Origin: Eledone cirrhosa | Lineage: Eukaryota | DNA: 64,000 nucleotides | Reading direction: 5' to 3' | Assembly: GCA_964016885.1 (NCBI GenBank) | Contig: OZ024759.1 | Span: 34,782,001 to 34,846,000 of the forward strand | Part shown: piece by piece, positions 17,201 to 49,209 of the stretch | Layout of the letters: each line of letters starts with the position of its first letter | How positions within the stretch are numbered: position 1 is the stretch's first letter | Notes under the pieces: generated by a model | Seen by the model: the letters and a program-made list of their open reading frames with translations, nothing else | Databases searched by the model: none | What the model was told of the DNA's origin: nothing | Program-made: the position numbers and the translations under genes

Positions 17201-17268
17201 TTTATTTTATTATATATATTTCAAGGGTACCAAGACAACATTGGTACGCTTTCATCAGATAAAATAAA
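17201..17268 (-). ncRNA. Type I hammerhead ribozyme
   Basis: Minus strand: TTTATTTTAT-CTGATGA-AAGCGTACCA(loop)TGGTACCCTT-GAAA-TATATA-TA-ATAAAATAAA; perfect 10-bp stem I. Confidence 0.75.
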
Positions 17269-17896
17269 AAGTTTGTTTTATAAATAGAGACGTACACATG
17301 AAAATCATACCTTATCGGTTGGAAATTCACTGGAAATTCACTCCAGACATCTGTTGAGTGCTCTAAATCAGTTATAAACATTTATATTTGTCGGACTTCC
17401 AACAAATTAAATACCCCTTCTACTTATCTATATATATATATATATCATTTTACGAATTAAAAATTTATAAAAACAACAACATATATATATATATATATAT
17501 ATATATATATATATATATATATATATATATATATATATATATATATATATATATGTTGTTGTTTTTAGAAATTTTTAATTCGTAAAATTTCTGGAAATAG
17601 AAATTCAATCAATTTGTTTATTTTTTTTATTTTTAATCTCTTTTTTTATGTTGTAGTTTTCGTTATTTTCGATGTTTTTTTTTTTACTTTTCGGTCCAAT
17701 TTGATATTTTTATTTTTAAAGTGCTCTTTGTTATTATTGATGTTATTGTTGATATTGTTGTTGTTGAATGATGGGGCGTAACTTAAAGTACCAGTTTCAA
17801 CGATCCACCATATTTTAGTCTAAACAACCATATTTCACACTGGAAACGATTCTTTCAAAACTCGTATGACTTCCCACTCTCGCCACAGTCTGGACA

Positions 17897-19030
17897 TCTC
17901 TTCTCTCTCTTCTCTCTCTTTTCTCTCTCTCTTCTCTCTCTCCTCTCTCTCTCTTCTCTCTCTCCTCTCTCTCTCTCTTCTCTCTCTCCTCTCTCTCTCT
18001 TCTCTCTCTCCTCTCTCTCTCTTCCCTCTCTCTCCTCTCTCTCCTCTCTCTCCTCTCTCTCCTCTCTCTCCTCTCTCTCCTCTCTCTCTCCTCTCTCTCC
18101 TCTCTCTCTCTCTCTTCTCCCTCTCTTCTCTCTCTCTTCTTTCTCTCTCTCCTCTCTCTCTTCTCTCTCTCTCTTCTCCCTCTCTTCTCTCTCTCTCTCT
18201 TCTCTCTCTCTTCTCTCTCTCTTCTCTCTCTCTTCTCTCTCTCTTCTCTCTCTCTTCTCTCTCTCTCTCCTCTCTCTTCTCTCTCTCTCTCCTCTCTCTC
18301 TTCTCTCTCTCTCTTCTCTCTCTTCTCTATCTCTTCTCTATCGTCTCTCTTCTCTATCTCTTCTCTATCGTCTCTCTTCTCTATCTCTTCTCTCTTCTCT
18401 CTTCTCTCTTCTCTCTCTCTCTTCTCTCTCTCTTCTCCCTCTCTTCTCTCTCTCTCTCTTCTCTCTCTCTTCTCTCTCTCTTCTCTCTCTCTCTCCTCTC
18501 TCTTCTCTCTCACTCTCCTCTCTCTCTTCTCTCTTCTCTCTCTCTCTTCTCTATCTCTTCTCTATCGTCTCTCTTCTCTATCTCTTCTCTATCGTCTCTC
18601 CTCTCTCTCCTCTCTCTCCTCTCTCTTCTCTCTCTCTCTCTCTCTTCTCCCTTTCTCTCCCCTCTCTCTCCCCTTTCTCTCTCTCTCTCTCCCCCCTCTC
18701 TCTCTCTCTCTCCCCCCTCTCTCTCTCCCCCTCTCTCCTCTCTCTCCCCTCCCTCTCCTCTCTCTCCCCTCTCTTCTCTCTCTCTCTTCTCTCTCTTTTA
18801 TCTCTTTTCCCACTCTCTCATCTCTCTCTTTCTCTCTCCCTCTCTCTCCCCTCTCTCTCCCTCTCTCCCTCTCTCTCTCCTCTCTCTCCTCTCTCTCCCC
18901 TCCCTCTCTCTCCACTCACTCTTCTCTCTCACTCTTCTCACTCTCTCATTCGCTCTCTTCTCTCTCTTTTTTCTCTTTTCCCACTCTCTCCTCTCTCTCT
19001 TTCTCTTCTCTCTCCTCTCTCTCTCTCCCA
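17897..19030 (+). repeat. Long (TC)n polypyrimidine tract
   Basis: About 1.1 kb almost purely C/T. Confidence 0.95.
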
Positions 19031-19199
19031 ACTATCTAGTGGGAAGAGAGAGAGAAGTGAGGGATAAGAGAGAGAGAGAGTGAATAGAGAGAGGGAAGAG
19101 AGAAGTCTACAGTCCAGTCTATCTCTTAACGCCATTATATTCCGGTTGTAGCCATTACAGATATTTTATACAACACAATTCATGTTCCAAACAGTTTTA

Positions 19200-19445
19200 A
19201 CATTTAGAGTGATCTGCCCTTGGCAATTAAAAAAACGTGGGCGCCGCCATTTGCATTTTAGCCATTTAGAGTGATCTGCCCTTGGCAATTAAAAAATCAT
19301 GGGCGCCGCCATTTGCATTTTAGCCATTTAGAGTGATCTGCCCTTGGCAATTAAAAAAAACAAGGGCGCCGCCATTTGCATTTTAGGCATTTAGAGTGAT
19401 CTGCCCTTGGTAATTAAAAAACAATAAGGACGCCGCCATTTGCAA
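19200..19445 (+). repeat. About 62-bp tandem repeat x4 within a segment duplicated at 19805-20052
   Basis: CATTTAGAGTGATCTGCCCTTGGCAATTAAAAAA...GGCGCCGCCATTTGC. Confidence 0.9.
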
Positions 19446-48454: not shown

Positions 48455-48515
48455 TATTTTATTATGAATATTTCAAGGGTACCAAAATTTTGGTACGCTC
48501 TCATCAGATAAAATA
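48455..48515 (-). ncRNA. Type I hammerhead ribozyme (left arm of palindrome)
   Basis: Minus strand: TATTTTAT-CTGATGA-GAGCGTACCA(AAATTT)TGGTACCCTT-GAAA-TATTCA-TA-ATAAAATA. Confidence 0.7.
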
Positions 48516-48595
48516 CAAAATTTGTTTTATAAATGTTGACATACCCAAGAAACCAGACCTTATCGGTTCAGGCTCAGTTTATAAAACAAATTTTG

Positions 48596-48656
48596 TATTT
48601 TATCTGATGAGAGCGTACCAAAATGTTGATACCCTTGAAATATATATAATAGAATA
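48596..48656 (+). ncRNA. Type I hammerhead ribozyme (right arm of palindrome)
   Basis: TATTTTAT-CTGATGA-GAGCGTACCA(AAATGT)TGATACCCTT-GAAA-TATATA-TA-ATAGAATA. Confidence 0.7.
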
Positions 48657-49143
48657 AATATGGTTTTATAAATATAGTTTCCATTTATTAATATTATTGA
48701 TATTATACTCCAGAAAATCTGTAGAGTGCTTCGAATCCGTTATAAATAAATTTATTGAATAACCAACAAATTAAATATCTCTTTGCTTATATATATATAT
48801 ATATATATATATATATATATATATATATATATATATATATATATTATTAGGGTAAACATTGATGCAATTCAATTCAAGCACTCAACTTACTTTTTCCACA
48901 TAGGAGTGACGGAGTAAATATCGAATAAGGAAAAGCGAAGTAGTTTCAGATGTTCAAGTCCTTTAATAATAATGCTGTGATATATATATATATATATATA
49001 TATATATATGCAGAGGTTATATTTAATTTGTTGGGATTCAACAAGCTTAAAAACTTTTATAACTGATATAAAGCACTCAACAAATTAGTGGAGTAAATAC
49101 ACAATGTATTAATAAATGGAAACTATATTTATAAAACCATATT

Positions 49144-49209
49144 TATTTTATTATACATATTTCAAGGGCAACCAAGGCAAATTATGGTGCGCTTTCATCA
49201 GATAAAATA
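49144..49209 (-). ncRNA. Type I hammerhead ribozyme
   Basis: Minus strand: TATTTTAT-CTGATGA-AAGCGCACCA(loop)TGGTTGCCCTT-GAAA-TATGTA-TA-ATAAAATA. Confidence 0.65.

What the first reader, a model, noticed from the sequence alone, without database searches (positions are those of the whole stretch)
17201..49209. A family of intronic hammerhead ribozymes (17201-, 48455-, 48596+, 49144-)
Seen: four copies of an AT-rich repeat each keep CTGATGA and GAAA, an 8-10 bp stem I, a stem II with a variable loop and an apparent compensatory change (GTACCA/TGGTAC versus GCACCA/TGGT-T-GC), and a (near-)palindromic TATATA in place of stem III. Known: minimal type I hammerheads with palindromic stem III occur in Penelope-like elements and retrozymes and can cleave as dimers. 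Inference: a non-coding, ribozyme-bearing retroelement family that favours (TA)n. No coding partner is in this window.
Basis: partly seen in the sequence, partly recalled or inferred. Interest (0 to 1): 0.75.

Follow-up and report, generated by a model that had tools for sequence, protein, structure and literature searches.

The report
Hammerhead ends of Hydra-type Penelope elements
The four self-cutting-RNA motifs are real, but they are the clipped ends of a very abundant, protein-coding Penelope-type jumping gene of a known group; its insertions end at two fixed points, each just before a small conserved hairpin that likely tells the copying enzyme where to start.

Summary
The four hammerheads are real: the core is near-invariant, only position 7 varies, and the stems covary. 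They are not a non-coding family. They are the 3' ends (pseudo-LTRs) of truncated or inverted copies of an autonomous Hydra-clade Penelope-like retroelement. Full-length copies elsewhere in the genome have a ~742-aa RT + GIY-YIG-type ORF, some uninterrupted, and insert in (TA)n. The genome holds at least 48,000 core matches. The four motifs belong to three insertions; 48455- and 48596+ are one. All of this fits published PLE biology.

Beyond that: copies end at two fixed sites, X and Y, about 92 nt apart. All 20 of 20 two-armed insertions in an unselected sample have one X and one Y end. Each site lies a few bases before a repeated bulged hairpin, also visible in published Hydra consensus sequences. 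cDNA reads through the predicted cut site in 57 of 61 long copies, so the template is uncut or re-ligated RNA. Cleavage, dimers and circles are untested. Three motifs are antisense to the cadherin host gene and the fourth is predicted to be locked in a long hairpin.

This scan had already noted the Hydra link, two-armed ends and twin hairpins on other DNA.

The parts
17156..17335 (-). Insertion 1, ribozyme arm: 5'-truncated 3' end of the PLE, ending at start site X (...ATCATTG then TA repeat)
   Evidence: 94-95% identical to ORF-bearing copies L067, L072, L190
17203..17266 (-). Hammerhead c1 (stem I, CUGAUGA, stem II with C-C mismatch, GAAA, AUAUAUAU palindrome; predicted cut between 17211 and 17210). 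Antisense to the host gene
17336..17424 (+). Insertion 1, inverted arm: the tail, which is also the element's 5' UTR, from hairpin 1 (17340-17362) to start site Y, then (TA)n
48413..48568 (-). Insertion 2, inverted arm ending at X; holds hammerhead c2 (48455-48515, damaged palindrome)
   Evidence: 96% to L193
48578..48788 (+). Insertion 2, direct arm: hammerhead c3 (48596-48656), X, hairpin 1 (48707-48730), tail to Y, then (TA)n. In host pre-mRNA the c3 core is predicted to be fully paired with the c2 arm
49009..49263 (-). Insertion 3: plain 5'-truncated copy in native order: hammerhead c4 (49144-49209), X, hairpin 1 (from 49094), tail to Y, (TA)n
   Evidence: 96-97% to the 5' repeats of L206 and of L175, whose frame is open for 741 aa
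62640..62811 (.). Older fifth copy, two-armed, without the hammerhead core (post-cut part plus inverted tail), about 80-84% identity
15310..51240 (+). Host multi-cadherin gene whose introns hold the insertions (only part of the gene delimited)
   Evidence: ORFs, Pfam cadherin hits, splice-like ends

Best explanation
The four motifs are hammerhead-type folds at the 3' ends of truncated and inverted copies of an autonomous Hydra-clade Penelope-like retroelement, whose enzyme likely cuts (TA)n DNA on both strands and likely starts copying at two fixed RNA sites, one per strand, each predicted to be set by a bulged hairpin just downstream. Shown: unit of 3.3-4.4 kb = hammerhead, X, hairpin 1, Y, hairpin 2, ATG, ~742-aa RT-endonuclease ORF, 1-2 kb AT-rich 3' UTR, hammerhead. 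Shown: two end points about 92 nt apart, and one of each in two-armed insertions. Shown: most cDNAs run through the predicted cut site. Inferred: the two DNA ends prime on sense RNA at X and Y, probably through a protein dimer on the two hairpins; the two cDNAs are then joined head to head. Inferred: the ribozyme is under selection and probably cuts inefficiently, as a dimer or with protein help. The template is RNA with an intact ribozyme, either uncut tandem transcript (about 60%) or a re-ligated circle (about 40%).
For: Predicted native junction ribozyme-to-tail: 1,546 exact matches, control 0. Full-length partial tandems L067, L072, L074. Uninterrupted 742-aa ORFs with YRDD in L176 and L177. 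Hydra motifs RWR, DKT, CxCX5C, no CCHH, CxxC and CxH. Core 99% conserved against 62% for the 5' flank, with N7 free. Stem covariation, 0 of 500 shuffles. Dimer fold with an 8-bp intermolecular stem III. X/Y rule: 20 of 20 in the unselected sample and 15 of 15 typed full-length copies. 57 of 61 long copies pass the cut site. Hairpin before X in 32 of 38 elements, with an A-U/G-C swap between the two hairpins and in the upper stem. In vitro precedent in an anole PLE: both strands extended, two internal starts define the tail, ribozyme mutants still insert (PMC11167929).
Against: No cleavage, binding or RNA data here. Rfam does not score the motif. Monomer folds of c3 and c4 are not better than shuffles (z -1.0 and -0.8). 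Many insertions show only one arm, and I did not get a clean count of them (one search was contaminated by repeats). The anole study saw no difference in start site between strands and start sites not homologous to the target, whereas X and Y here have TA-like micro-homology. The number of pairs with double changes was not significant (4 against 2.7, 84 of 500). Clade membership rests on motifs and by-eye comparison, not a tree. The hairpin was not clear in the Hydra-1_Obim or Hydra-1_Amil consensus.
Confidence: 0.85

Rival explanations
1. The short copies are a separate non-autonomous retrozyme family (tandem ribozyme units making circular RNA) that borrows a PLE enzyme.
For: Short copies far outnumber 5'-UTR-bearing ones (38,702 against 121 exact matches). 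8 of 83 5'-UTR occurrences sit in short units, seven of them clear internal deletions, five of the eight still with a ribozyme. Retrozymes are proposed to derive from PLE pLTRs (bioRxiv 10.64898/2026.07.22.740005).
Against: 5' ends of short copies are spread over many positions and longer copies run on into the 3' UTR and ORF. Window copies match ORF-bearing ends at 94-97%. Each deleted unit was seen once among 80 loci, and no array of ribozyme units was seen.
Confidence: 0.05
2. The template is a ribozyme-cut, re-ligated circular RNA of unit length, and more-than-unit rolling copying makes the pseudo-LTR. This is a sub-case of the best explanation.
For: The 3' tail and the 5' UTR evolve together: 2.9% within an element against 12.3% (up to 29%) between elements. 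5' repeats reach 110 to about 1,500 nt upstream of the cut site. L210 has the 5' UTR twice, 3,938 nt apart. L215 is one insertion that crosses the same junction twice, and the junction lies exactly at the cut site. Proposed in PMC4209133.
Against: Within-element identity is no better than identity to the nearest other element (3.0% against 3.0%). Five of the seven shared private post-cut variants come from one element. L219 and L237 have junctions at +27 and +41, not at the cut site. Internal priming on a tandem transcript explains the same data, and uncut RNA was the main substrate in vitro.
Confidence: 0.4
3. Head-to-head arms arise by self-priming on an antisense transcript, and the tail comes from endonuclease resolution, as proposed for rotifer Penelope.
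For: PMC3846280 Discussion (passages) and PMC8557442. Some junctions here are palindromic (L032, L052).
Against: It does not explain why both outer ends fall at two fixed points of the sense RNA, each before the same hairpin, always one of each. It also does not explain arms that do not overlap (tail only on one side, as in c1, L081, L083), or inverted arms that start deep in the ORF (L042, L060).
Confidence: 0.1
4. [quoted passage not shown]
For: A few boundaries fall at the cut site: L215 (0), L220, L236, L024, L055, L053, L230.
Against: Only 3 of 61 long copies stop at -3..+5, against 1.1 expected (P = 0.10); 57 pass through. Stops at -12..-4 cannot be read because the palindrome resembles the TA target.
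Confidence: 0.1

Closest known systems
Hydra clade of EN+ Penelope-like elements, including Hydra-1_Obim of Octopus bimaculoides (Craig et al. 2021, PMC8557442; passages, section 11 and supplement parts 2, 52, 53 read)
   Same: Single RT + C-terminal GIY-YIG-type ORF, RWK-like, DKT, CxCX5C, no CCHH, CxxC/CxH, type I hammerhead near the 3' end, (TA)n insertion, partial tandems, inverted 5' arm, one-sided tail
   Different: A different family from Hydra-1_Obim (different hammerhead; protein only motif-level alike by eye). Longer unit (3.3-4.4 kb against under about 3 kb), pLTRs present, tail about 92 nt rather than 30-40, 8-bp stem I, long stem II with a conserved C-C mismatch, tens of thousands of copies
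Minimal PLE hammerheads (Cervera and de la Pena 2014, PMC4209133; parts 1-2 of 4 read)
   Same: In pLTRs, mostly solitary on truncated copies, pairs 100-700 bp apart on opposite strands, palindromic helix III, predicted to act as dimers, low activity
   Different: Here pair 10.1-11.1 is mostly A-U rather than G-C, helix I is longer, and helix III is a 3-bp stem within an 8-nt palindrome
Poseidon_Ac of Anolis, in vitro (Frangieh et al. 2024, PMC11167929; parts 1-2 of 4 read)
   Same: Two internal RT start sites bound the tail, both strands are extended, the ribozyme cut is not needed, AT-rich target
   Different: There the starts are in the ORF, a few bases apart in one AC-rich stem-loop, with no strand difference reported. 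Here they are in the 5' UTR, about 92 nt apart, each before its own hairpin, one per end
Animal non-LTR retrozymes (PMC7229834, search listing only; bioRxiv 10.64898/2026.07.22.740005, parts 1-2 of 5 read)
   Same: Type I hammerhead, PLE-related
   Different: Retrozymes are defined as non-coding tandem units each with a ribozyme. These are variable-length ends of a coding element

Membership tests
Type I hammerhead ribozyme | Core C3 U4 G5 A6 N7 G8 A9, G12 A13 A14, A15.1-U16.1, H17 not G | tested here: met
   91 arms: U4, G5, A6, G8 91 of 91; C3, A9 90; G12 88; A13, A14 89; N7 T60/G14/A12/C5; H17 A in 89 (13 of 104 arms dropped by eye)
Type I hammerhead ribozyme | Helices I and II with compensatory change | tested here: met
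   94% of cells paired, 14 double-change cells against 6.6 shuffled; stem I pair 2 is A-U 49, G-U 34, G-C 7
Type I hammerhead ribozyme | Rfam hammerhead model match | tested here: not met
   (150 of 418 rows shown); minimal PLE forms are usually found with descriptors
Type I hammerhead ribozyme | Self-cleavage after H17, monomer or dimer | not testable with these tools
   only a predicted dimer fold
Hydra-clade PLE | Single ORF, RT then C-terminal GIY-YIG-type endonuclease, no CxC, hammerhead in pLTR | tested here: met
   Pfam gave no hit on three ORF pieces, while many homologues carry PF26215
Hydra-clade PLE | RWK-like motif, DKT, CxCX5C linker, no CCHH, CxxC and CxH | tested here: met
   RWR, SDKTNN, CNCRNKSNC, VVYNCNVKTNLNSFNYVG, CDLC, CRH in L176
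Hydra-clade PLE | Insertion into (TA)n | tested here: met
   ends
Hydra-clade PLE | Short element (generally under 3 kb) | tested here: not met
   unit 3.3-4.4 kb because of a long 3' UTR; the paper gives this as a tendency
Hydra-clade PLE | Placement in an RT phylogeny with reference clades | not tested
   published references were seen only as text and compared by eye
Non-LTR retrozyme | Tandem non-coding units, each with a hammerhead | tested here: not met
   copies are variable 3' ends of a coding element; no genome-wide array search was run
Non-LTR retrozyme | Abundant circular RNA | not testable with these tools
   no RNA holder listed
Naiad, Neptune, Nematis, Penelope/Poseidon PLE | CCHH inside the GIY-YIG motif; DKG or DKA; N-terminal endonuclease in Naiad | tested here: not met

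The most novel reading that the evidence does not exclude
In Hydra-clade PLEs two copies of a bulged hairpin (RCUC, upper stem, 2-nt bulge, GAGY, RCU) are loading sites for a dimeric RT-endonuclease. Each subunit primes one strand of a cut (TA)n target a few bases upstream of its hairpin, on one RNA whose hammerhead junction is intact, possibly a re-ligated circle. One rule would then explain the tail, the inverted pseudo-LTR and the partial tandem of Penelope-like elements, with a structure-set start point reminiscent of telomerase RNA.
Probability: 0.45. Interest if true: 0.7.

Novelty: new member of a known kind. Interest (0 to 1): 0.42.

Why it matters
As a class this is known: hammerheads at the ends of Penelope-like elements, including an octopus Hydra element, are in print. 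The value lies in the sample size and the intact ORFs. How PLEs make inverted, one-tailed insertions, and what their hammerhead does, are still open questions. This family gives a strict one-X/one-Y footprint, a candidate RNA signal for each start site, and natural full-length ORFs with which to test them in the published in vitro assay. For the host gene the motifs probably do little, since none of the four is placed to cut the cadherin pre-mRNA.

Tried and rejected
Rfam scans gave only microRNA-like hits from repeats. Pfam found nothing on three PLE ORF pieces. Sequencing-run search: no RNA holder listed, so no reads were laid and nothing follows about expression. My first idea, that 5' ends pile up at the cut site, failed: 3 of 61 against 1.1 expected, P = 0.10; in the pooled 380 arms the excess at -12..-4 is confounded by TA repeats. 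The automated classification of 5' structures was contaminated by repeats and is not used for counts. Within-element against nearest-element divergence did not discriminate circle from tandem. One energy value ('open core') used a mis-registered structure and is ignored. I first read the protein as Neptune-like and rejected that on DKT, CxCX5C and the missing CCHH. The idea of a fixed 270-nt mini-element came from a query-biased hit list and was dropped. Literature searches and term look-ups in three papers showed no description of the twin hairpins or of a counted one-X/one-Y rule. The library lacks most subscription journals. I did not see the supplements of the bioRxiv preprint or of PMC11167929, PMC4209133 and PMC3846280, and they could bear on this. 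No structure or complex prediction was run.

Full report
Observation. The four motifs are at 17203-17266 (-), 48455-48515 (-), 48596-48656 (+) and 49144-49209 (-). The core pattern occurs 9 times in the window against 1.09 expected. Each has an 8-bp stem I, CUGAUGA, a stem II of three pairs, a C-C mismatch and 6-7 more pairs, GAAA, and AUAUAUAU or AUAUGUAU followed by A17. c2 has a damaged palindrome and c3 a stem II mismatch. They lie in introns of a plus-strand multi-cadherin gene. The host is probably an octopod. This is inferred: a 3.0-Gb microsatellite-rich genome, and the best named relative of the element's protein comes from Argonauta hians at 39%.

Is it a hammerhead? I sampled the first 100 places of an exact 30-mer that lies downstream of the predicted cut (38,702 matches, control 0), so the core was not selected for. 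Of 104 arms (100 genomic and the 4 window copies) I dropped 13 by eye, 4 truncated inside the ribozyme and 9 with internal deletions or expansions. In the other 91, U4, G5, A6 and G8 are invariant, C3 and A9 occur in 90, G12-A14 in 88-89, and N7 takes all four bases. Mean conservation is 0.99 for the core and 0.62 for the 20 nt upstream of stem I. The flank figure is ungapped and so too low, the parse asked for a near-match to the core, and two arms of one insertion both count. Stem I changes keep pairing (pair 2: A-U 49, G-U 34, G-C 7). On 16 sequences 94% of cells pair and 14 cells change on both sides; 0 of 500 shuffles reach either figure, but the count of covarying pairs is not significant (84 of 500) and relatedness is not controlled. 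Both common stem III sequences are self-complementary. Monomers do not form stem III, while two c1 molecules fold best as a dimer with an 8-bp intermolecular stem III and open cores (-30.0 kcal/mol against -12 per monomer). Rfam does not score the motif. Cleavage is untested. The 5' half of the core has 48,268 exact matches, control 0.

What carries it. c1 and its closest relatives read as two parts with fixed outer ends in (TA)n and a variable middle junction. c3 and c4 suggested that the native order is ribozyme, then tail. The predicted junction has 1,546 exact matches. Among 30 of these, some run far upstream, and two have inverted arms made of RT or endonuclease coding sequence. Using the RT piece I fetched 20 of 40 scored loci; 15 of 20 carry the ribozyme region about 2 kb downstream. 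L067, L072 and L074 are complete partial tandems. The tail continues directly into the 5' UTR and the ATG. A protein search found four frames of 743-749 codons without stops among 90 listed matches. L176 and L177 encode 742 aa with YRDD intact, L175 has 741 aa with YRDY, and L208 has 735 aa. c1 is 94-95% identical to the ends of L067, L072 and L190, c2 and c3 94-96% to L193, and c4 96-97% to L175 and L206. So the window holds three subfamilies of one coding element, in three insertions, plus an older core-less copy at 62640-62811.

Clade. Craig et al. 2021 (PMC8557442; passages, section 11, supplement parts 2, 52, 53) define Hydra by RWK, DKT, CxCX5C, loss of CCHH, CxxC and CxH motifs, hammerheads and (TA)n insertion. 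All are met, with RWR for RWK. Their Hydra-1_Obim has a different hammerhead and no pLTR, so this is another family. I built no tree. The unit here is longer than typical, 3.3-4.4 kb.

Two ends. Copies end either about 50 nt after the cut site (X) or about 92 nt further on (Y). In the unselected sample all 20 of 20 head-to-head pairs have one X and one Y. Among 38 full-length elements, 17 show an inverted arm in the fetched range: 15 of 15 typed by script are X/Y, L234 is X/Y by eye, and L210 is unresolved. When the Y arm is short it covers only the tail, as in c1, L081 and L083. The literature notes a tail on one end (PMC8557442; PMC3846280, passages). It also shows in vitro that two internal start sites bound the tail and that both strands are extended (PMC11167929). 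The simplest reading is two-strand priming on sense RNA, one site per strand. This is inferred. Many insertions show only one arm, and I have no clean count of them.

Twin hairpins. X and Y are each followed by RCTC, an upper stem, a 2-nt bulge, GAGY and RCT. The first was found in 32 of 38 elements as ACTC/GAGT. The second was found in 36 of 38 as GCTC/GAGC, but it was part of the selecting pattern. Identity with the element stops 2-7 nt before hairpin 1 (12 cases) and 3-4 nt before hairpin 2 in 5 of 7 cases (10 nt in two), TA micro-homology included. In 115 of 138 contexts in register the lower stem pairs in 109-113, the loop varies freely, and the top pair is A-U in 56 and G-C in 29 (85 Watson-Crick against a shuffled mean of 50 and a maximum of 65; relatedness not controlled). 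An unrelated hammerhead family in the fetched loci has the same lower stem and bulge after its X end. By eye the motif occurs in published Hydra-1_Ajap (twice in the 5' UTR), Hydra-2_Ajap, Hydra-2_Amil and, less exactly, Hydra-1_Crog; it is not clear in Hydra-1_Obim or Hydra-1_Amil. I saw this before one search showed that the scan had noted it on other DNA of this genome. Those notes are not independent evidence.

Role of the ribozyme. I fetched 80 of 121 places that carry the 5' UTR. Of 81 arms after removing 2 duplicates, 61 reach the cut site; 57 pass beyond -13 and 3 stop at -3..+5, against 1.1 expected (P = 0.10). 5' repeats extend 110 to about 1,500 nt past the site in 18 elements. The template therefore usually has an intact ribozyme, in line with PMC11167929, where ribozyme mutants inserted normally. 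For a circle: tail and 5' UTR differ by 2.9% within an element and 12.3% between elements, and L215 crosses the same junction twice, at position 0 of the cut site. Against: within-element identity equals nearest-neighbour identity, junctions in L219 and L237 fall elsewhere, and internal priming on tandem RNA gives the same pattern. I put the circle at about 40%. No RNA run was available.

Effect on the host. c1, c2 and c4 are antisense to the cadherin gene. c3 is sense, but all 11 core bases checked pair with the c2 arm in the predicted fold (-160.7 kcal/mol). Cutting of the pre-mRNA is unlikely.

Verdict. This is a new, very abundant family of the known Hydra clade. Interest 0.42: the class is known, but the counted X/Y rule, the hairpins and the intact ORFs make an open mechanism testable. 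Dimer cleavage of PLE hammerheads (Lunse et al. 2017) and the R2 and L1 comparisons are recalled, not read here.

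Noticed in passing
window 11835-11885 (-): Another hammerhead-like family (short GGAC/GTCC stem II); six relatives in fetched loci such as L030, L063, L133
   Followed up: partly
window 51833-51958: Head-to-head pair of a third hammerhead-like family (cores at 51893- and 51898+); 17 relatives in fetched loci ending in (TA)n
   Followed up: partly
window 12517-12580 (+) and 16652-16690 (+): Two more hammerhead-like cores (CTGAAGA...GAAA); the first has the same ATATGTAT palindrome and is sense to the host gene
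   Followed up: no
L078, L080, L175, L179, L247, L263, L270: A hammerhead family with a GC-rich stem I, the same stem III palindrome, X and Y ends and the same bulged hairpin; L121, L123, L142, L179, L203 hold yet another
   Followed up: partly
L215 about 1650-2190: 285-nt unit without ribozyme copied more than 1.5 times in one insertion, junction exactly at the predicted cut site; L219, L230, L237 are similar short units with junctions at +27, +1..3 and +41
   Followed up: partly
L246, L252, L261, L267: Internally deleted copies that keep the 5' UTR and the ribozyme (units about 310-1,000 nt): possible retrozymes in the making, each seen once
   Followed up: partly
L040, L055, L056, L058, L067 (3' UTR, about 170-200 nt upstream of the cut site): Conserved ATTTGCAT, the octamer of snRNA promoters (recalled), in several subfamilies; could be part of the pLTR promoter
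   Followed up: no
5' UTR of L212 and L072: A segment after hairpin 1 is complementary to one after hairpin 2 and forms a long helix in the predicted fold, enclosing Y; no covariation seen
   Followed up: partly
L185, L210: Both direct repeats share a private base change that the inverted arm lacks, hinting that the inverted arm was copied from a second RNA molecule
   Followed up: no
window 7605-9515 (+), with further pieces to about 11180: LINE-type reverse transcriptase ORF of 636 aa (RVT_1, E 1.8e-26), unrelated to the hammerheads; an assembly gap lies at 7146-7345
   Followed up: no
window 32040-33370: Tandem array of a 33-nt unit inside a cadherin intron (seen as repeated open frames)
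   Followed up: no
L196, L216/L217: Near-identical flanks show local or segmental duplication of whole insertions
   Followed up: no
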